A stretch of DNA of 43,714 nt from Escherichia phage NTNC80A. Below the pieces are notes generated by a model. That model saw nothing but the letters and a program-made list of their open reading frames with translations. It was not told the DNA's origin and ran no database searches. The DNA lies in sequence record OP018999.1. One strand, given 5' to 3'. Positions 21,933 through 43,714 of this stretch are shown here, piece by piece. Position numbers and translations under genes: made by a program. Position 1 is the stretch's first letter; each line of letters opens with the position of its first letter.

Positions 21933-22061
21933 ATGGAGATGCTTGAGATGATTCTCAAGCCTTCTTCTCCGAAAGTAACTAAGACTCATGAAGAGTTAAT
22001 CGTAGATGAAGTGAAGCGTTACATTATGGATTGTGTCAAGGCACAACTGGTGGTTCAATGA
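21933..22061 (+). CDS. micro-protein (42 aa), hypothetical
   Basis: ATG 21933 after SD GAAGGGA; stop overlaps the next start. Confidence 0.3.
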   Translation: MEMLEMILKPSSPKVTKTHEELIVDEVKRYIMDCVKAQLVVQ

Positions 22062-22519
22062 TACGTCCAGCTTCCTTCCTAGATATTCCTGAGATTATTA
22101 ATCTCGGAGACAAGTATGTAGAAGAAGAAGTCAAGGTGGTGGCACATCATTCTGCGTCGTGGAATGCGGAACAAAGTGCAGCTAACCTGTGTGCCTCTCT
22201 AATCAGAGAGGATTTATTCCTGTGGGTCGCTGTGGATGAAGGGCAGGTTGTAGGATTCCTGTGGGCTGGTTATCACGACCTAGCACCTTGGACGCCAGTG
22301 CGTGTTGCATCTGACATTCTCTTCTATGTTGTACCGGAGAAGCGAGGGACGCTACTTGGTATGCGACTAATCAAGGCATACAAGCAATGGGCTTTTGAGA
22401 AAGAGTGTGCTGAGGTACGCATGTCAATAGCCTCTGGTATTAACGAGGAACGTGTTGGACGTATGTATAGGCGACTAGGCTTTGAGACGTTCGGCACTGT
22501 GTATAACTTAAAACTTTAA
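22058..22519 (+). CDS. GNAT-fold acetyltransferase-like protein (tentative)
   Basis: 153 aa; VVPEKRGTLLGMRLI resembles GNAT motif A and RMYRRLGFETFG the C-terminal GNAT beta-hairpin; the call is by eye only. Confidence 0.55.
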   Translation: MIRPASFLDIPEIINLGDKYVEEEVKVVAHHSASWNAEQSAANLCASLIREDLFLWVAVDEGQVVGFLWAGYHDLAPWTPVRVASDILFYVVPEKRGTLLGMRLIKAYKQWAFEKECAEVRMSIASGINEERVGRMYRRLGFETFGTVYNLKL

Positions 22520-22739: not shown

Positions 22740-24290
22740 ATGAGGCAAGACACCGACCTTGAATATGGTGGCAAGCGGTCTAAGATACCTAAGCTGTGGG
22801 AGAAGTTATCAACTAAGCGTAACCCATTTATGGATAGGGCTAAACATTATGCCAGACTCACCTTGCCTTACCTTATGAATGAGGAGGGCGATAACAATAC
22901 ATCTCAGAACGGATGGCAAGGTGTCGGTGCTCAAGCCACTAACCACTTAGCTAACAAGTTAGCGCAAGTTCTCTTTCCTGCTCAACGCTCTTTCTTCCGA
23001 GTTGACTTGACAGCAAAAGGAGAGAAGATATTAAACAACAGAGGTCTTAAGAAGACCAAATTAGCTACACTGTTTGCTCAAGTAGAGACTGCGGCTATGA
23101 AGCAATTAGAACAGCGGCAGTTCCGCCCAGCGGTAGTGGAGTGTTTCAAGCATTTGATTGTTGCTGGCAACTGTATGTTGTACAAGCCAAGCAAGGGTGC
23201 AATCAGTGCTATACCTATGCACCACTATGTAGTTAATAGAGATGCCAATGGTGAACTGCTGGATATTATCTTACTGCAAGAGAAGGCTCTCAAGACATTC
23301 GACCCTGCAACTCGCATGGCTATTGAAGTAGGCATGAAAGGTAAGAAGTGCAAAGACAGTGATAATGTAAAACTCTACACACACGCCAAGTACGAGGGTG
23401 AAGGGTTTTGGGAATTAAATCAATCAGCAGATGATATTCCTATTGGTAAATCTAGTAGAATCAAAGCTGATAAGCTCCCATTCATCCCTCTTACTTGGAA
23501 GAGGTCATATGGGGAAGATTGGGGTCGCCCTCTTGCAGAGGATTATTCTGGAGACTTGTTCGTAATCCAATTCTTATCAGAAGCAGTTGCTCGTGGCGCT
23601 GCTTTGATGGCCGACATTAAATACCTGATTCGTCCAGGTGCTCAAACAGATGTAGACCATTTTGTTAACTCAGGGACAGGTGAAGTAATTACTGGCGTGG
23701 AAGAAGATATTCATATTGTACAATTGGGTAAGTATGCAGACCTAACACCAATAAGTGCTGTGCTAGAGGTTTATACCAGACGCATCGGCGTAGTCTTTAT
23801 GATGGAGACTATGACGCGACGAGATGCAGAACGTGTAACTGCCGTAGAGATACAGCGAGATGCTCTTGAGATTGAGCAGAACATGGGTGGCGTATATTCA
23901 CTCTTTGCTACGACCATGCAGACACCAGTGGCTATGTGGGGTCTGCTTGATGCCGGAGACTCTTTCACTAGTGACCTAGTAGACCCTGTTATTATCACAG
24001 GTATTGAAGCGTTAGGTCGCATGGCAGAGTTGGATAAGCTGGCTAACTTCGCTCAGTATATGGCATTACCTATGAGTTGGCCTGAGCCAGTACAGGCAGC
24101 AGTGAACTGGCCTGATTATATGGATTGGGTTCGTGGTCAGATCTCTGCTGAACTTCCATTCCTAAAATCAGAAGAGCAGATGAAGAAAGAACAAGCACAG
24201 ATGGCACAAGCACAGCAAGAGCAGATGCTTAATGAAGGGGTAGCTAAAGCTGTTCCGGGTGTCATTCAACAAGAACTTAAGGAGGCGTAA
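22740..24290 (+). CDS. portal (head-tail connector) protein
   Basis: 516 aa, immediately 5' of the scaffold and capsid genes in T7-type order. Confidence 0.9.
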   Translation: MRQDTDLEYGGKRSKIPKLWEKLSTKRNPFMDRAKHYARLTLPYLMNEEGDNNTSQNGWQGVGAQATNHLANKLAQVLFPAQRSFFRVDLTAKGEKILNNRGLKKTKLATLFAQVETAAMKQLEQRQFRPAVVECFKHLIVAGNCMLYKPSKGAISAIPMHHYVVNRDANGELLDIILLQEKALKTFDPATRMAIEVGMKGKKCKDSDNVKLYTHAKYEGEGFWELNQSADDIPIGKSSRIKADKLPFIPLTWKRSYGEDWGRPLAEDYSGDLFVIQFLSEAVARGAALMADIKYLIRPGAQTDVDHFVNSGTGEVITGVEEDIHIVQLGKYADLTPISAVLEVYTRRIGVVFMMETMTRRDAERVTAVEIQRDALEIEQNMGGVYSLFATTMQTPVAMWGLLDAGDSFTSDLVDPVIITGIEALGRMAELDKLANFAQYMALPMSWPEPVQAAVNWPDYMDWVRGQISAELPFLKSEEQMKKEQAQMAQAQQEQMLNEGVAKAVPGVIQQELKEA

Positions 24291-38393: not shown

Positions 38394-38676
38394 ACATGCA
38401 GCCACAGAGGATGAAGTAGGCATCCTGCATGGCGCTATTACGAAGATGTTTAATAAGAAAGCAAAGGCTATACTGGACACTATAGAAGCAGACCCTGATT
38501 CTGCTATGCACCTAGTGTCAGGTAAAGATATTGGAGCCATGTGTAAATGGGTTTTAGATAACGGCATTACTGCCACCCCTGCTGCACAGCAGGAGGAGTC
38601 CAAGTTATCTAAGCGCCTCAAGGCCATCCGAGAGGCGTCCAGTGGCAAGATCATTCAGTTCACTAAGGAGGATTGA
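38377..38676 (+). CDS. terminase small subunit (T7 gp18-like)
   Basis: GTG 38377 with SD GGAGGA 6 nt upstream (ORF track 38332); VSVHNKHAATEDEVGILHGAI N-terminus; directly precedes the large subunit. Confidence 0.7.
   Translation: MSVHNKHAATEDEVGILHGAITKMFNKKAKAILDTIEADPDSAMHLVSGKDIGAMCKWVLDNGITATPAAQQEESKLSKRLKAIREASSGKIIQFTKED
38468..38490 (+). promoter_or_regulatory. promoter-like sequence inside the small terminase gene
   Basis: ctatactggacactatagaagcag: core matches consensus, two upstream mismatches. Confidence 0.4.
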
Positions 38677-40571
38677 TGGCTAAGGCTAGAGAATCACAAG
38701 CGGAGGCTCTTGCCAGATGGGAGATGCTACACGAGTTACAGCAGACCTTCCCTTATACCGCAGAAGGTTTGCTTCTCTTTGCTGATACAGTTATTCATAA
38801 TTTAATTGCAGGTAGTCCTCATCTGATTCGTATGCAGGCAGACATCTTGAAGTTCCTATTCTACGGACACAAGTATCGCCTCATCGAAGCGCCCCGTGGT
38901 ATCGCTAAAACTACACTGGCAGCAATCTATACGGTGTTCCGTATCATTCATGAGCCTCATAAGCGCATCATGGTTGTATCCCAAAACGCCAAGCGAGCAG
39001 AGGAAATTGCAGGTTGGGTGGTCAAAATATTCCGAGGATTGGACTTCCTAGAGTTTATGCTGCCAGACATCTACGCTGGCGACCGTGCATCCGTTAAGGC
39101 ATTCGAGATTCACTATACACTGCGTGGAAGCGACAAGTCCCCTTCTGTATCCTGCTACTCTATTGAAGCAGGTATGCAGGGTGCTCGTGCAGACATCATT
39201 CTAGCAGATGACGTTGAATCTATGCAGAATGCGCGTACCGCAGCAGGCCGTGCATTGCTTGAGGAATTGACCAAGGAGTTTGAATCTATCAACCAGTTTG
39301 GTGATATTATCTACCTTGGTACACCACAGAATGTGAACTCTATTTACAACAACCTCCCTGCACGCGGTTATTCTGTTCGCATCTGGACTGCTCGTTACCC
39401 TTCGGTAGAGCAAGAGCAATGTTATGGTGACTTCCTTGCACCTATGATCGTGCAGGATATGAAGGACAACCCAGCATTGCGAACAGGTTATGGTTTGGAT
39501 GACAACAGTGGCGCTCCTTGTGCACCTGAAATGTATGATGATGATGTCCTGATTGAGAAGGAAATCTCACAAGGTGCTGCTAAGTTCCAGCTTCAGTTCA
39601 TGCTTAACACTCGCATGATGGATGCTGACAGATACCCATTACGCCTGAACAATCTAATCTTCACCTCGTTCGGTACAGAGGAAGTCCCTGTGATGCCTAC
39701 GTGGAGTAATGATTCCATAAACATCATTGGTGATGCACCTAAGTATGGTAACAAGCCTACGGATTTCATGTACAGACCTGTAGCTCGCCCATACGAATGG
39801 GGTGCTGTCTCCCGCAAGATTATGTATATTGACCCTGCGGGTGGCGGTAAGAACGGGGATGAGACGGGTGTAGCCATCGTATTCCTGCACGGCACATTCA
39901 TTTATGTGTATCAGTGCTTTGGTGTACCTGGCGGATACCGAGAATCGTCCCTGAATCGCATTGTGCAGGCCGCAAAGCAAGCGGGTGTTAAAGAGGTATT
40001 CATTGAGAAAAACTTTGGTCATGGCGCGTTTGAGGCTGTTATAAAGCCATACTTTGAACGAGAATGGCCTGTGACCATTGAAGAGGATTACGCCACTGGT
40101 CAAAAAGAACTCCGTATCATAGAGACATTGGAGCCGCTGATGACCGCGCATAGACTTATCTTCAATGCCGAGATGGTCAAGTCGGATTTCGCTTCAGTAC
40201 AGAACTACCCGCTTGAACTGCGGATGTCTTATAGTCTGTTCCATCAAATGTCGAACATCACTATTGAGAAGAACAGCCTCAGGCATGATGACCGCTTAGA
40301 CGCCCTGTATGGCGCTGTGCGTCAATTAACTTCTCAGATAGACTATGACGAGGTTACTCGTATTAATCGCCTCAGAGCGCAGGAGATGCGCGATTATATA
40401 CAGGCGATGAACACACCTAAACTTCGTCGGGCTATGCTGTACGGAGATTATGGTGATGAGCGAAGAACAACCAACACATCCTTAGCAATGCAGCAGAGAG
40501 TTTACGGGCAGAATTGGAGGAACCGCTCTGGTTCTAGAAATACACTTTCTTCAAGGATTTCAAGGATTTAG
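38676..40571 (+). CDS. terminase large subunit (T7 gp19-like)
   Basis: Walker A PRGIAKTT, GARADIILADDVE and IYLGTPQ match T7 gp19 motifs as recalled; ATG 38676 after SD AAGGAGGA. Confidence 0.95.
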   Translation: MAKARESQAEALARWEMLHELQQTFPYTAEGLLLFADTVIHNLIAGSPHLIRMQADILKFLFYGHKYRLIEAPRGIAKTTLAAIYTVFRIIHEPHKRIMVVSQNAKRAEEIAGWVVKIFRGLDFLEFMLPDIYAGDRASVKAFEIHYTLRGSDKSPSVSCYSIEAGMQGARADIILADDVESMQNARTAAGRALLEELTKEFESINQFGDIIYLGTPQNVNSIYNNLPARGYSVRIWTARYPSVEQEQCYGDFLAPMIVQDMKDNPALRTGYGLDDNSGAPCAPEMYDDDVLIEKEISQGAAKFQLQFMLNTRMMDADRYPLRLNNLIFTSFGTEEVPVMPTWSNDSINIIGDAPKYGNKPTDFMYRPVARPYEWGAVSRKIMYIDPAGGGKNGDETGVAIVFLHGTFIYVYQCFGVPGGYRESSLNRIVQAAKQAGVKEVFIEKNFGHGAFEAVIKPYFEREWPVTIEEDYATGQKELRIIETLEPLMTAHRLIFNAEMVKSDFASVQNYPLELRMSYSLFHQMSNITIEKNSLRHDDRLDALYGAVRQLTSQIDYDEVTRINRLRAQEMRDYIQAMNTPKLRRAMLYGDYGDERRTTNTSLAMQQRVYGQNWRNRSGSRNTLSSRISRI

Positions 40572-40572
40572 T

Positions 40573-40595
40573 ATTTACTGGACACTATAGGAGGA
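40573..40595 (+). promoter_or_regulatory. phage RNAP promoter (consensus)
   Basis: atttactggacactataggagg; +1 G at 40590. Confidence 0.75.
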
Positions 40596-40720
40596 AGACC
40601 AAGAGAATAAAGGAATATTATAGGATAATATAGGATTACCTAGGTTATAGGTATACCTTAGTATGGGTGTACTCCTGTACACCCTATTCCTACTTACTTA
40701 TACTAATATCATAGGAGGTA
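40596..40720. other. AT-rich leader sharing ATAGGATTACCTAGG with the 7021-7035 region; candidate secondary origin
   Basis: Exact 15-mer at 40630-40644 and 7021-7035, both just downstream of a phage promoter. Confidence 0.3.
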
Positions 40721-40722
40721 TA

Positions 40723-41001
40723 ATGGCTAATGACTATAGTAATCAACCCTTAACAGGACGATACGATAGGAAACAAGTACAGCCTATCAGTGAACACTTG
40801 ATGGTTCCAAGTGTTAACACTGATATTGATTTATATAACCCAGCAAAACAAGGTAGTGTTATTAATGATGCTACAAAATCTGGTAAACAGAAAGGTGCTA
40901 TGATTGCTTCAGGACTGGGTGTGATTATGTTAGCTCAAGGAAGTAAACCTACAGACAAGTGGTATCAAACAACGACTGAACAGATTATTGTTCCACAATA
41001 A
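40723..41001 (+). CDS. small protein, paralog 1 of the SGKQ(K/E)G family (92 aa)
   Basis: ATG 40723 with SD AGGAGG (ORF track 40663); ...TKSGKQKGAMIASGLGVIMLAQGSKPTDKWYQ. Confidence 0.6.
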   Translation: MANDYSNQPLTGRYDRKQVQPISEHLMVPSVNTDIDLYNPAKQGSVINDATKSGKQKGAMIASGLGVIMLAQGSKPTDKWYQTTTEQIIVPQ

Positions 41002-41013
41002 GAGGAGGGTAAT

Positions 41014-41298
41014 ATGGCAAAATATGGTGAAGCGAATACAGTAACAGGTCAAGTTTTTCGTACTAAAGAGGTTCAAACTATTGCAACAGCACTACCGTTG
41101 CCAGTTGTGTTAGAAGAAGATTTGAAATCAAAAGTACACCCTATTAATATCAACCACCTGTCTGGTAAGCAGAAGGGGGCAATGGTAGCAGTACAGAAGG
41201 CGGACAGCTCACTGTATATTGCAGTTGCACGAGGTGATTTGCCAGAGTCGCCGTGGGATGTTACAGCAATGAGTGTAGCCGTAACACCGGGAGAGTGA
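41014..41298 (+). CDS. small protein, paralog 2 of the SGKQ(K/E)G family (94 aa)
   Basis: SD GAGGAGGG; ...HLSGKQKGAMVAVQKADSSLYIAVARGD. Confidence 0.6.
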   Translation: MAKYGEANTVTGQVFRTKEVQTIATALPLPVVLEEDLKSKVHPININHLSGKQKGAMVAVQKADSSLYIAVARGDLPESPWDVTAMSVAVTPGE

Positions 41299-41302
41299 TA
41301 CT

Positions 41303-41980
41303 ATGTTAGGTGTTACTGGACAAAGACGTGCTAGTCACAAGTCAAAGGTTGCGGCGGAAGTCGCACCTTTAGTAGATTTAAATTCAATAAAAGATATACA
41401 ATCTTATCTAAACCAGAGATACCTTTCCGGTAAGCAAGAGGGCTACGCTGTACTAGCTAAAGTAGATGGAGGTTATTCTCTTTATGTTGCATCTGGTTCA
41501 AAGGTATCAGATAAATGGGTTCTTATGAAACAAGGTGTTTCAGAAGACTCTTCCTCATTAGAGCTGGTGGATGTAATAAATACTAATGTTGAGAGCTTAA
41601 GTGATACTGTAGAGGTTAATGTAACAAAAGAAAGAACTGTCTGTGTTCAAACCCCAATGATAGACTTAGCAGGTACAGTTGTATACCGTCAGGCATTAAC
41701 CGCTAACCTTAATATTACTATTAATGAGAATGGCAGTCCGGGTGATACTGTTAAACTAAAAGTTAGTATACCAGATTTACCTGGTACAAGTGGTGGGTCT
41801 TACTATACGCTGGATAATGTATTGTGTACAGCTTATAGTGAAAATGACCCTGTTACAGTAAACATAGATGTAGATGCAGCTAATACAAGCAGTATTACAG
41901 TATCTTTGAGGAAGGAGACAGCTACAGATATTAAGCTATCTTTCTTATTCATATGGTCTATGCCTATGGAGGTAGTATAG
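41303..41980 (+). CDS. paralog 3 of the SGKQ(K/E)G family with beta-rich C-terminal extension (225 aa)
   Basis: ...YLSGKQEGYAVLAKVDGGYSLYVASGSKVSDKWVL, then Thr/Val/Asn-rich strand-like sequence. Confidence 0.65.
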   Translation: MLGVTGQRRASHKSKVAAEVAPLVDLNSIKDIQSYLNQRYLSGKQEGYAVLAKVDGGYSLYVASGSKVSDKWVLMKQGVSEDSSSLELVDVINTNVESLSDTVEVNVTKERTVCVQTPMIDLAGTVVYRQALTANLNITINENGSPGDTVKLKVSIPDLPGTSGGSYYTLDNVLCTAYSENDPVTVNIDVDAANTSSITVSLRKETATDIKLSFLFIWSMPMEVV

Positions 41981-42324
41981 TGCTTAACAAATACTTCAAG
42001 CGTAAAGAGTTTGCTTGCCGTTGTGGATGCGGGACATCTACTGTTGATGCTGAGTTATTACAGGTAGTCACAGATGTGCGTGAGCACTTTGGTGTTCCTG
42101 TGGTTATCACATCAGGCCATCGCTGTTCTAAGCACAATGCTAACGTAGGTGGAGCTAAGAACTCCATGCATCTTACTGGTAAGGCTGCTGACATCAAGGT
42201 GACAGGTGTCGGACCAATAGAGGTACGTGCATACCTCTGCAATAAATACCCAGATAAGTACGGCATTGGTGCTTATCCTGCTTTTACACATATAGACGTG
42301 AGAGGTAATAAAGCACGGTGGTAG
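41980..42324 (+). CDS. endolysin, zinc peptidase M15-like
   Basis: HRCSKHNANVGGAKNSMHLTGKAADI ... AFTHIDVR gives the H-x-D ... H zinc triad; GTG 41980 (SD GGAGG 7 nt upstream) or ATG 41953. Confidence 0.85.
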   Translation: MLNKYFKRKEFACRCGCGTSTVDAELLQVVTDVREHFGVPVVITSGHRCSKHNANVGGAKNSMHLTGKAADIKVTGVGPIEVRAYLCNKYPDKYGIGAYPAFTHIDVRGNKARW

Positions 42325-42921: not shown

Positions 42922-43000
42922 ATAAGATAGCGCCGTTCTTTTGAGCGGCCTATTACTAGCCAATCTTCATAGGGAGGGTTGGAAAGTAATAGGAGATAGC

Positions 43001-43714
43001 ATGGCTAAATTAACCAAACCTAAGACTGAAGGAATCTTGCATAAAGGACAATCTTTGTATGAGTACCTTGATGCGAGAGTTTTAACATCAAAGCCGTTTG
43101 GTGCTGTAGGTGGGGGCACTTCTTCTCAAGTTCGCCTATTTACTTCTGATGGTACTTCTCGGACAGTGTCCCTCACCAACGGTAACGTGCGTCTTTCTAC
43201 CAGTAGCACAGGCTATTTGCAGTTAGGTGCTGATGCAATGACCCCAGATAGTACTGGTACATACGCATTAGGTTCCGCCAGTCGAGCATGGTCTGGTGGT
43301 TTTACTCAAGCAGCATTCACTGTTACCTCAGATGCTCGGTGTAAAACAGAACCTCTTACTATCTCAGATGCCTTACTGGATGCTTGGTCTGAAGTTGACT
43401 TTGTGCAGTTTCAGTATTTGGATCGTGTTGAGGAGAAGGGTGCAGACTCAGCTAGATGGCACTTTGGCATCATCGCTCAGCGAGCTAAGGAGGCTTTCGA
43501 ACGTCACGGTATAGATGCACATCGCTATGGCTTCTTGTGCTTCGACAGTTGGGATGATGTATACGAGGAAGATGCCAATGGCTCTCGTAAACTGATTACA
43601 CCAGCAGGTTCTCGCTACGGTATTCGTTACGAGGAAGTACTGATATTAGAGGCTGCGTTGATGCGTCGGACTATTAAGCGTATGCAGGAGGCACTAGCTT
43701 CCCTGCCTAAGTAA
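43001..43714 (+). CDS. tail fibre protein with C-terminal intramolecular-chaperone (peptidase S74-like) domain
   Basis: ATG 43001 with SD AGGAGA (ORF track 42941); SDARCKTE ... ARWHFGIIAQRA ... YGIRYEEV autocleavage/chaperone signature; TAA is the last codon of the window. Confidence 0.8.
   Translation: MAKLTKPKTEGILHKGQSLYEYLDARVLTSKPFGAVGGGTSSQVRLFTSDGTSRTVSLTNGNVRLSTSSTGYLQLGADAMTPDSTGTYALGSASRAWSGGFTQAAFTVTSDARCKTEPLTISDALLDAWSEVDFVQFQYLDRVEEKGADSARWHFGIIAQRAKEAFERHGIDAHRYGFLCFDSWDDVYEEDANGSRKLITPAGSRYGIRYEEVLILEAALMRRTIKRMQEALASLPK

What the first reader, a model, noticed from the sequence alone, without database searches (positions are those of the whole stretch)
40723..41980. Three tandem paralogous small genes sharing an SGKQ(K/E)G core, between terminase and endolysin
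Proteins of 92, 94 and 225 aa share a ~40-residue core: SGKQKGAMIASGLG...KPTDKWY / SGKQKGAMVAVQKADSSLYIAVARGD / SGKQEGYAVLAKVDGGYSLYVASGSKVSDKWV. They sit behind a consensus promoter and an AT-rich leader. I know no counterpart in T7 and cannot place the family. The third copy adds a beta-strand-like Thr/Val/Asn-rich extension, which hints at a virion-surface or receptor-associated role. A triplicated, diverging module in the late region could be a host-range or anti-defense cassette.
Basis: seen in the sequence. Interest (0 to 1): 0.75.

Follow-up and report, generated by a model that had tools for sequence, protein, structure and literature searches.

The report
Three paralogous minor virion (capsid-accessory) proteins
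The three small genes are real paralogs of a little-studied family of SP6-like phages whose counterparts in Klebsiella phage Kp7 are found in purified virions and called minor capsid proteins; they most likely form a trimeric surface decoration, not an anti-defence cassette or the "acetyl-CoA acetyltransferase" that databases call them.

Summary
The window is Escherichia phage NTNC80A, an SP6-like phage (Molineuxvirinae). Genes 40723-41001 (92 aa), 41014-41298 (94 aa) and 41303-41980 (225 aa) share a roughly 80-residue N-terminal domain. They lie behind a phage-RNA-polymerase promoter, between the large terminase and the endolysin.

The family is not unplaced. It is PHROG 2725/32357, conserved at this position in SP6, K1-5, Kp7 and related phages, and absent from T7. 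RefSeq's "acetyl-CoA acetyltransferase" label has no support.

In Klebsiella phage Kp7 the three positional orthologs (gp45, gp46, gp47) were identified by mass spectrometry in bands from purified virions. They are annotated "minor capsid protein"; gp47 carries an Ig domain.

Distant relatives point to a trimer-forming virion anchor that can carry an outward display module:
- Many are single polypeptides with three tandem copies of the domain (AlphaFold pLDDT 86.5, pTM 0.78).
- Others have one N-terminal copy followed by a module known to be trimeric: collagen repeats, an Sf6 needle knob or a phi29 head-fibre tip.
- Others carry an Ig domain.

In NTNC80A the display module is a beta-sandwich with no match. 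No solved structure matches the anchor domain. Capsid placement and trimer formation are inferred, not shown here.

Verdict: a new member of a known but poorly characterised kind, of moderate interest.

The parts
40577..40593 (+). SP6/K1-5-type phage RNA polymerase promoter driving the cassette (transcription start inferred near G40590)
   Evidence: ACTGGACACTATAGGAG is an exact match here. There are 9 copies in the window with up to 3 mismatches, against 0.09 expected. It aligns with the same promoter in PSK8, mutPK1A2, K1-5, SP6 and Kp7.
40594..40722 (+). AT-rich, conserved 5' leader with two adjacent predicted hairpins (A about 40628-40664; B 40665-40684, GGGTGTAC-TCCT-GTACACCC), ending in the AGGAGG ribosome-binding site of p1
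   Evidence: G+C is 33%. Mean column identity is 77% over 7 phages. RNAalifold predicts the two hairpins, and hairpin B keeps 3 pairs through changes on both sides in Kp7. A relative annotates hairpin B as a putative terminator. There is no Rfam match.
40723..41001 (+). p1, 92 aa: bare anchor domain; positional ortholog of K1-5 gp41, SP6 locus SP6p42 and Kp7 gp45
   Evidence: PHROG 2725 E 1.1e-30. 42% identical to Kp7 gp45. dN/dS 0.12-0.15 against PSK8 and mutPK1A2. No cysteine and no transmembrane segment.
41014..41298 (+). p2, 94 aa: bare anchor domain; the most conserved copy; positional ortholog of K1-5 gp42, SP6 locus SP6p43 and Kp7 gp46
   Evidence: PHROG 2725 E 5.2e-40. 89 homologs of 93-101 aa, mostly on contigs of about 44 kb. 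dN/dS 0.04-0.06.
41303..41542 (+). p3 N-terminal anchor domain (aa 1-80), starting MLGVTGQR, the N-terminus typical of the extension-bearing members
   Evidence: PHROG 2725 E 3.8e-14 over residues 3-79. Aligns with Kp7 gp47 and with the p3-type proteins. pLDDT about 80 for residues 21-75.
41543..41980 (+). p3 C-terminal extension (aa 81-225): predicted beta-sandwich display domain. The stop TAG 41978-41980 overlaps by one base the probable GTG start of the endolysin.
   Evidence: PHROG 32357 E 2e-90 over the full length. The AlphaFold2 model is all-beta, pLDDT about 70. Foldseek against the PDB gives only weak generic beta-sandwich matches (best E 2.4e-3, TM 0.27). No PDB sequence match. Overlap context.
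38673..40571 (+). Context: large terminase subunit, immediately upstream
   Evidence: 96% identical to the annotated terL of PSK8 and mutPK1A2.
41980..42324 (+). Context: endolysin (Peptidase_M15_3), immediately downstream
   Evidence: Pfam PF08291 E 3.7e-33; PHROG 894 endolysin E 2.8e-45.

Best explanation
The three genes encode late, soluble, virion-borne accessory proteins. They are most probably capsid-surface ('minor capsid' or decoration) proteins.

The shared ~80-residue domain would be the anchor. It has a conserved but predicted-disordered N-terminal arm (TGQ..R), followed by a small alpha/beta unit carrying N...SGK..G...W. I propose that it assembles three at a time, most likely where three capsomers meet, with the N-terminal arm ordering only on binding.

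p1 and p2 are bare anchors that would act as cement. p3 is the same anchor carrying an outward-facing beta-sandwich domain that could give weak, reversible binding to surfaces or glycans. The module that p3 carries is exchanged between related phages.

**Shown**
- Paralogy, late phage promoter, purifying selection and conserved gene order.
- Virion presence of the Kp7 orthologs.
- Fusion of the domain to known trimeric or display modules, and triple-repeat polypeptides, in relatives.

**Inferred**
- Capsid rather than tail location in NTNC80A.
- Trimer formation, binding site and stoichiometry.
- Any adhesive role of the p3 extension.
For: **1. Virion presence of the orthologs.** Kp7 has the same layout: terL, gp45 (88 aa), gp46 (88 aa), gp47 (178 aa), endolysin. 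The three are annotated 'minor capsid protein' and 'minor capsid protein with Ig-domain'. They align with p1, p2 and p3. Bands cut from a silver-stained gel of purified virions were identified by mass spectrometry as gp45, gp46 and gp47 (bioRxiv 10.1101/2024.05.19.594906).

**2. Architecture of the family.** I classified the 146 newly retrieved representatives among the best 150 of 283 hits, in a library clustered at 50% identity:
- 73 are the bare domain.
- About 45 are three tandem copies in one chain.
- 27 are one N-terminal copy plus a C-terminal extension; the domain always starts at residues 2-14.

**3. What the extensions are.**
- Ig I-set, also related to the T5 pb10 decoration protein.
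- Collagen triple-helix repeats.
- Sf6-type needle knob, E 5e-43.
- phi29 head-fibre C-terminus, 26.5 bits against a cut-off of 24.6.
- Glycine linkers between the anchor and the distal domain.

Collagen, knob and head fibre are trimeric from what is established about those families.

**4. The fused form.** The fused three-repeat protein P0131 folds confidently as one unit (pLDDT 86.5, pTM 0.78). Fused genes also lie directly after a T7-type terL.

**5. Expression and selection.**
- A late phage promoter and a Shine-Dalgarno-like purine-rich stretch before each gene, strongest for p1 and p2.
- dN/dS 0.04-0.15.
- No transmembrane segment.

**6. Retention of both small copies.** In every SP6-like genome examined here (K1-5, SP6, Kp7, mutPK1A2, PSK8, UAB_Phi78, KAW1A4500) p1-type and p2-type genes sit as an adjacent pair, only about 35% identical to each other. 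This fits non-redundant partners.
Against: - No experiment on NTNC80A itself.
- The Kp7 evidence is one preprint. It reports virion presence but shows no data placing the proteins on the capsid rather than the tail or neck.
- No solved structure contains the domain. Foldseek finds no resemblance to gpD, Soc, Dec, pb10 or gp8.5.
- K1-5 has only two copies, which does not fit a strict 1:1:1 heterotrimer.
- The repeats of fused proteins do not map one-to-one on p1, p2 and p3, except weakly in the four closest.
- Several extensions (collagen, needle knob) and database names ('tail protein', 'tail fiber protein') are equally typical of tail appendages.
- Model coordinates could not be inspected, so the pseudo-threefold packing is inferred from pTM alone.
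Confidence: 0.6

Rival explanations
1. Tail- or neck-anchored appendages. The shared domain would dock on the adaptor, nozzle or portal region rather than on the capsid shell. p3 would be a small side fibre or whisker, and p1 and p2 would be collar-like subunits.
For: - Relatives carry modules typical of tail fibres: collagen repeats, Sf6 needle knob, many 'tail fiber' PHROG matches.
- BFVD matches at E up to 0.01 are to a Marinomonas 'tail fiber protein' and to long proteins named as SGNH esterase or pectate lyase.
- Some records name the Ig-bearing ortholog 'tail protein'.
- The genes lie in the same late block as the tailspike genes.
Against: - The only group with virion data calls them minor capsid proteins and lists the tail proteins separately.
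- The 'tail' names follow from the Ig or collagen module alone.
- The commonest forms are bare domains of about 90 aa, or three fused bare domains. That fits a cement better than a fibre.
- Ig modules of the same type occur on the T5 capsid decoration protein pb10.
Confidence: 0.2
2. Non-structural late proteins (an anti-defence or host-takeover factor, or an assembly or lysis helper) that merely co-purify with virions.
For: - The cassette evolves faster than its flanks: 68-81% protein identity against 95-96% for terL and the endolysin.
- It is swapped within a genus: CrRp3 has flanks 90% identical in DNA but p3 only 32% identical.
- It sits next to the lysis genes, and p3 is translationally coupled to the endolysin.
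Against: - The Kp7 orthologs give visible bands in purified virions.
- Fusion to Ig, collagen, knob and head-fibre modules is a signature of structural proteins.
- dN/dS is low. The extra divergence is mostly saturated dS, which indicates old mosaic exchange rather than positive selection.
- No significant PADLOC match, no Pfam match and no membrane segment.
Confidence: 0.1
3. They are acetyl-CoA acetyltransferases (thiolases), as RefSeq, PHROG 2725 and several GenBank records name them.
For: Only the label itself. It already appears as 'putative' in the UAB_Phi78 genome table of 2016 (PMC4837284).
Against: - No Pfam or NCBIfam thiolase match at E up to 1.
- p1 and p2 are 92-94 aa; thiolases are about 390 aa (my knowledge).
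- p1 and p2 contain no cysteine, although thiolases use a catalytic cysteine (family knowledge).
- The domain occurs as an N-terminal anchor for fibres and Ig domains.
Confidence: 0.01

Closest known systems
Klebsiella phage Kp7 gp45, gp46 and gp47 ('minor capsid protein' x2 and 'minor capsid protein with Ig-domain'; GenBank ON148527; bioRxiv 10.1101/2024.05.19.594906)
   Same: - Same family (all invariant residues kept).
- Same order and position: terL, two copies of about 90 aa, one longer copy, endolysin.
- Same upstream promoter and leader.
- This is the family I file the three genes under.
   Different: - Only 29-42% identical.
- The Kp7 third copy carries an Ig I-set domain, whereas NTNC80A carries an unrelated ~145-residue beta-sandwich.
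- Virion presence is shown for Kp7 only.
SP6 loci SP6p42, SP6p43, SP6p44 and K1-5 gp41, gp42 (unstudied small late genes)
   Same: Orthologous family and position.
   Different: The SP6 third copy (81 aa) is a bare, shortened domain. K1-5 and UAB_Phi78 have no third copy.
[quoted passage not shown]
   Same: It works alike in concept. Two paralogous decoration proteins share one capsid-binding motif; one is bare and one carries an extra arm proposed to mediate adhesion; they occupy different quasi-equivalent sites.
   Different: The fold is unrelated (helix-turn-helix dimers at twofold axes), and there is no sequence or Foldseek relation.
T5 pb10 and T4 Hoc (capsid-binding domain plus Ig-like display domain)
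   Same: N-terminal anchor plus outward display module. The Ig domain of Kp7 gp47 matches pb10 (5lxk, 8zvi; E about 1e-16).
   Different: - pb10 and Hoc bind hexamer centres as monomers (paper knowledge).
- The anchor domains are unrelated.
- NTNC80A p3 has no Ig domain.
Trimeric decoration proteins and head fibres: lambda gpD, T4 Soc, phage L Dec, phi29 gp8.5
   Same: - Small subunits of about 9-11 kDa, or fibre bases, acting as trimers at threefold or quasi-threefold positions.
- A disordered N-terminal arm in gpD (my knowledge).
- One relative carries the phi29 head-fibre C-terminus.
   Different: No fold or sequence similarity detected. Here the three subunits are diverged paralogs, or are fused in one chain.

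Membership tests
SP6-like 'minor capsid protein' family (PHROG 2725 / 32357; Kp7 gp45-47 type) | Significant match of each protein to the family profile | tested here: met
   PHROG 2725: p1 1.1e-30, p2 5.2e-40, p3 3.8e-14. PHROG 32357: p3 2e-90.
SP6-like 'minor capsid protein' family (PHROG 2725 / 32357; Kp7 gp45-47 type) | Signature residues T-G ... N ... S-G-K ... G ... W in an ~80-residue domain | tested here: met
   These residues are invariant in the alignments with SP6, K1-5, Kp7 and metagenomic members.
SP6-like 'minor capsid protein' family (PHROG 2725 / 32357; Kp7 gp45-47 type) | Position directly downstream of the large terminase, behind a phage promoter and upstream of the endolysin | tested here: met
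   Same order in mutPK1A2, SP6, K1-5, Kp7, PSK8 and KAW1A4500. The fused forms also follow terL.
SP6-like 'minor capsid protein' family (PHROG 2725 / 32357; Kp7 gp45-47 type) | Presence in purified virions | not testable with these tools
   Reported by gel and mass spectrometry for the Kp7 orthologs only. No data for NTNC80A.
SP6-like 'minor capsid protein' family (PHROG 2725 / 32357; Kp7 gp45-47 type) | Location on the capsid shell | not testable with these tools
   Rests on the Kp7 authors' naming. No deposited structure contains the domain.
Thiolase / acetyl-CoA acetyltransferase | Thiolase N- and C-terminal domains (about 390 aa) | tested here: not met
   No Pfam or NCBIfam match at E up to 1. 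The proteins are 92, 94 and 225 aa.
Thiolase / acetyl-CoA acetyltransferase | Catalytic cysteine | tested here: not met
   p1 and p2 have no cysteine.
Trimeric capsid decoration / cement proteins (gpD, Soc, Dec, phi29 gp8.5) | Fold or sequence related to a solved member | tested here: not met
Trimeric capsid decoration / cement proteins (gpD, Soc, Dec, phi29 gp8.5) | Subunits act as trimers | tested here: inconclusive
   Indirect only: fusion to collagen, Sf6 knob and head-fibre modules; three-repeat single chains with pTM 0.78. There is no multimer model or experiment, and K1-5 has two copies.
Hoc / pb10-type Ig-display decoration proteins | Ig-like display domain | tested here: not met
   No Ig family matches p3. 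Kp7 gp47 and P0212 do have one.
Anti-phage-defence-related proteins (PADLOC models) | Match to a known or candidate defence-system protein | tested here: not met
   No match for p1 or p2. For p3 only E 0.009, 12 bits, to a homing endonuclease model. Anti-defence proteins as such are not in that library.

The most novel reading that the evidence does not exclude
The ~80-residue domain is a capsid-decoration fold not yet seen in any solved structure. It works as a threefold unit that evolution has realised in three ways: a homotrimer carrying a fibre or knob, separate diverged paralogs, and three repeats fused in one chain. The diverged or fused versions would be adapted to the asymmetric quasi-threefold sites of the T=7 shell. 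The homotrimeric, extension-bearing p3 type would sit on sites with true threefold symmetry. p3 would then be a swappable head-borne adhesin module.
Probability: 0.3. Interest if true: 0.65.

Novelty: new member of a known kind. Interest (0 to 1): 0.4.

Why it matters
- **Therapy and enzymes.** SP6-like phages (K1-5, K1E, and Klebsiella, Proteus and Erwinia phages) are widely used for therapy and as depolymerase sources. Yet two or three of their virion proteins are unstudied and mislabelled as a metabolic enzyme in RefSeq and in PHROG-based pipelines.
- **Annotation.** Recognising them as virion accessory proteins corrects the annotation of hundreds of genomes.
- **Structure.** It points to an anchor domain with no solved counterpart.
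- **Engineering.** It suggests a natural display scaffold (anchor, glycine linker, exchangeable distal module) for phage engineering.
- **Capsid biology.** The split and fused versions of one threefold unit offer a testable case of how decoration proteins adapt to quasi-equivalent capsid sites.

Tried and rejected
- **Acetyl-CoA acetyltransferase label.** Rejected: no thiolase domain, wrong size, no cysteine in p1 or p2.
- **CdiA-CT toxin 5e3e_B.** A weak PDB profile hit (E 0.35) shares a 'SG.QKG' stretch. I treat it as noise: it is not significant and Foldseek does not recover it.
- **Sigma-70 promoters and intrinsic terminators.** Neither is enriched in the region. The promoter is the phage type.
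- **Leader RNA folded alone.** Not more stable than shuffles (z -0.54).
- **Rfam.** No match.
- **The search for related loci.** The fused-protein alignment and two fused proteins found nothing in viral contigs.
- **Contigs carrying fused genes.** They are short (0.9-3.3 kb), which limits the context.
- **Colinearity test.** I asked whether repeats 1, 2 and 3 of fused proteins correspond to p1, p2 and p3. It holds weakly for the four closest proteins (P0131, P0133, P0135, P0145) and not in general, so it is inconclusive.
- **Literature searches.** None found a capsid structure of an SP6-like phage or further virion proteomics.
- **PADLOC and NCBIfam.** Nothing significant.
Full report
**Identity of the window**

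The 225-aa and 94-aa proteins are 100% identical to proteins of Escherichia phage NTNC80A, whose contig is 43,714 bp, the length of the window. NTNC80A belongs to Autographivirales, Molineuxvirinae, genus Rodentiumvirus, so it is an SP6-like phage.

**Check of the observation**

- The mechanical ORF for p1 begins at 40663. The ATG at 40723 has AGGAGG 7 nt upstream, and orthologs begin MAN.. at that point.
- Pairwise BLASTP is significant for all three pairs: 3e-7, 6e-5 and 6e-5.
- The hexapeptide SGKQ[KE]G occurs three times in the six-frame translation and never in 200 shuffles.
- A domain HMM hits only these three ORFs in the window, and nothing in T7.
- The similarity covers the whole ~80-90-residue domain. 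Invariant residues are T-G near the N-terminus, then P, N, S-G-K, G and W.

The 'consensus promoter' is a phage-RNA-polymerase promoter. It lies at 40577-40593 and is one of nine copies in the genome, against 0.09 expected. The leader is 33% G+C against 45.6% for the genome. The upstream gene is the large terminase and the downstream gene is a Peptidase_M15_3 endolysin.

All three genes are under purifying selection, with dN/dS 0.04-0.15. None has a membrane segment.

**The family is known to databases, under a wrong name**

- All three match PHROG 2725, and p3 matches PHROG 32357 over its full length. There is no Pfam or NCBIfam match.
- PHROG 2725 and RefSeq call the small proteins 'acetyl-CoA acetyltransferase'. 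A 'putative' version of that label is already in a 2016 genome table.
- Nothing supports the label: no thiolase domain, a quarter of the size, and no cysteine in p1 or p2.

**Conservation and variation**

| Phage | Genes between terL and the endolysin |
|---|---|
| K1-5 | two copies (92, 96 aa) |
| UAB_Phi78 | two copies (91, 95 aa) |
| SP6 | 99, 99 and a shortened 81-aa third copy (followed by a small unrelated gp45) |
| mutPK1A2, PSK8, KAW1A4500 | two small copies plus a 225-aa third copy, as NTNC80A |
| Kp7 | 88, 88 and 178 aa |

- The pair p1/p2 is constant. The third gene is optional, and its C-terminal part is exchanged.
- The cassette is far more diverged than its flanks:

| Gene | Protein identity to PSK8 |
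|---|---|
| terL | 96% |
| p1 | 77% |
| p2 | 81% |
| p3 | 68% |
| endolysin | 95% |

- dS is saturated in the cassette (1.1-2.2, against 0.4-0.75 in the flanks), and p1 and p3 have low G+C (37%).
- CrRp3, in the same genus, has flanks 90% identical in DNA but a p3 only 32% identical.
- This is old mosaic exchange, not positive selection.
- The same p3 type occurs with different receptor-binding proteins and hosts: the K1 endosialidase phage mutPK1A2, a Raoultella phage and NTNC80A. K1-5 infects K1 strains without any p3. So p3 is not the primary host-range determinant.

**Direct evidence on what the proteins are**

GenBank ON148527 annotates Kp7 gp45 and gp46 as 'minor capsid protein' and gp47 as 'minor capsid protein with Ig-domain'. 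They align with p1, p2 and p3.

The accompanying preprint states that visible bands of silver-stained gels of purified Kp7 virions were cut out and identified by mass spectrometry. The list includes 'minor capsid proteins (gp32, gp45, gp46, and gp47)', kept separate from the tail proteins. The text gives no data on where in the virion these proteins sit. No PDB entry contains the domain.

**Evidence from distant relatives**

A profile search of 1.84 billion cluster representatives gave 283 hits. I classified the 146 newly retrieved representatives among the best 150:

- 73 are bare domains.
- About 45 are single chains with three tandem copies. Some have a degenerate third copy.
- 27 have one copy at the extreme N-terminus followed by an extension.

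The extensions are:

- an Ig I-set domain (P0212, like Kp7 gp47; its Ig part also matches the T5 decoration protein pb10);
- collagen repeats (P0274, and the gene after the fused gene in L004);
- an Sf6-type needle knob (P0232, E 5e-43);
- the C-terminal part of the phi29 head fibre (P0264, above the Pfam cut-off);
- several unassigned beta-rich domains, often behind a glycine linker.

Collagen helices, needle knobs and phi29 head fibres are trimeric, from established knowledge of those families. An anchor at their base therefore sits three to a unit. All extension-bearing members have the p3-type N-terminus M..VTGQR.

The fused three-repeat genes also lie directly after a T7-type terL. With a 34-sequence alignment, AlphaFold2 models the fused protein P0131 at pLDDT 86.5 and pTM 0.78. 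Each repeat has two short helices around the N...SGK segment, a beta-hairpin and a strand bearing the invariant W. The arms between repeats are of lower confidence. A pTM that high for three small repeats implies a fixed mutual arrangement, but I could not inspect the coordinates.

Foldseek finds no solved structure resembling the fused model (best E 0.7, TM about 0.1). In BFVD it finds, at E up to 0.01, family members in Proteus, Vibrio, Pseudomonas, Aeromonas, Erwinia, Klebsiella and Marinomonas phages. It also finds short matches within long proteins named pectate lyase and SGNH esterase. The Vibrio and Pseudomonas examples belong to Colwellvirinae, the sister subfamily.

**The p3 extension**

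The AlphaFold2 model of p3 has mean pLDDT 68: about 80 for residues 21-75 and about 70 for the C-terminal part. It gives the same small anchor followed by an all-beta sandwich. Foldseek and PDB profile searches give only weak, generic beta-sandwich matches. I therefore call it a display domain of unknown ligand.

**Mechanism proposed**

The genes are transcribed late from their own phage promoter, each with a Shine-Dalgarno-like site. The proteins join the virion surface through the shared domain. Three domains form one unit, probably where three capsomers meet, and the conserved but predicted-disordered N-terminal arm would order on binding. p1 and p2 are bare cement subunits. p3 adds an outward beta-sandwich on the same anchor and may bind surfaces or glycans weakly.

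I cannot decide whether the paralogs co-assemble or occupy different quasi-equivalent sites. The fused forms favour co-assembly. The two-copy phages, and the homotrimer-type modules on p3 relatives, favour site partitioning. The test of colinearity between fused repeats and p1, p2 and p3 was inconclusive.

The main rival is attachment to the tail or neck. The collagen and knob modules and several database names would fit that equally well.

**Comparison with known systems**

- The genes are members of the Kp7 gp45-47 family (profile match, signature residues and gene order all met).
- They work like paralogous decoration pairs such as the PhiM1 alpha-claw and alpha-paw, like anchor-plus-Ig proteins such as pb10 and Hoc, and like trimeric cement proteins or head fibres.
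- They are not related to any of these in fold or sequence, as far as Foldseek and HMMER can see.

**Verdict**

The genes are new members of a known but barely characterised kind. The interest lies in the unsolved anchor fold and the split and fused threefold architecture.

Noticed in passing
window 40594-40722: The 5' leader between the phage promoter and p1 is better conserved in DNA across NTNC80A, PSK8, mutPK1A2, KAW1A4500, K1-5, SP6 and Kp7 (77% mean column identity) than the genes it precedes. It has repeated TAGG motifs and two adjacent predicted hairpins. Hairpin B (40665-40684) keeps 3 pairs through double changes in Kp7 and is largely missing in SP6. One record annotates it as a putative terminator, and there is no Rfam match. 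It may be an RNase III or mRNA-stabilising site, or an attenuator.
   Followed up: partly
window 42941-43714 and 1-819: The record is opened between two short tail-fibre-like genes. The first ends with its stop codon on the last three bases of the window. Judged by eye (not run against Pfam), both end in a segment resembling the self-cleaving intramolecular chaperone of endosialidase-type fibres. Both are far shorter than the K1-5 or SP6 tailspikes.
   Followed up: partly
window 40723-41298; also L001, L002, L003, L008: RefSeq and PHROG 2725 name the ~95-aa proteins 'acetyl-CoA acetyltransferase'. The label is propagated through many SP6-like genomes and is unsupported.
   Followed up: yes
window 40723-41980: p1 and p3 are 37% G+C, while p2 (45%) and the flanks (46-47%) match the genome. 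dS within the cassette is saturated while the flanks are at 0.4-0.8. This indicates mosaic replacement of the cassette among close relatives.
   Followed up: partly
protein P0096 (metagenomic, 95 aa): Its N-terminal third looks like p1 (NSYSTQPLTGKSARKQIQPVSE...) and the rest like p2. This suggests recombination between the two paralogs.
   Followed up: no
window 41978-41982: The p3 stop codon TAG overlaps by one base the probable GTG start of the endolysin. mutPK1A2 and PSK8 have the same junction, which suggests translational coupling of p3 and the endolysin.
   Followed up: partly
L004:1916-2680 and L007:2973-3332: In metagenomic contigs the fused three-repeat gene is followed by a fourth gene with the same anchor domain. 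In L004 the anchor is joined to about 14 collagen G-X-Y repeats. So these phages carry both a pseudo-trimer and a true trimeric fibre on the same anchor.
   Followed up: partly
window 22031-22519: Kp7 also lists gp32, the gene before the portal, as a minor capsid protein. NTNC80A has a 162-aa ORF in the corresponding place, before the portal-sized ORF 22740-24290. It does not carry the anchor domain.
   Followed up: no
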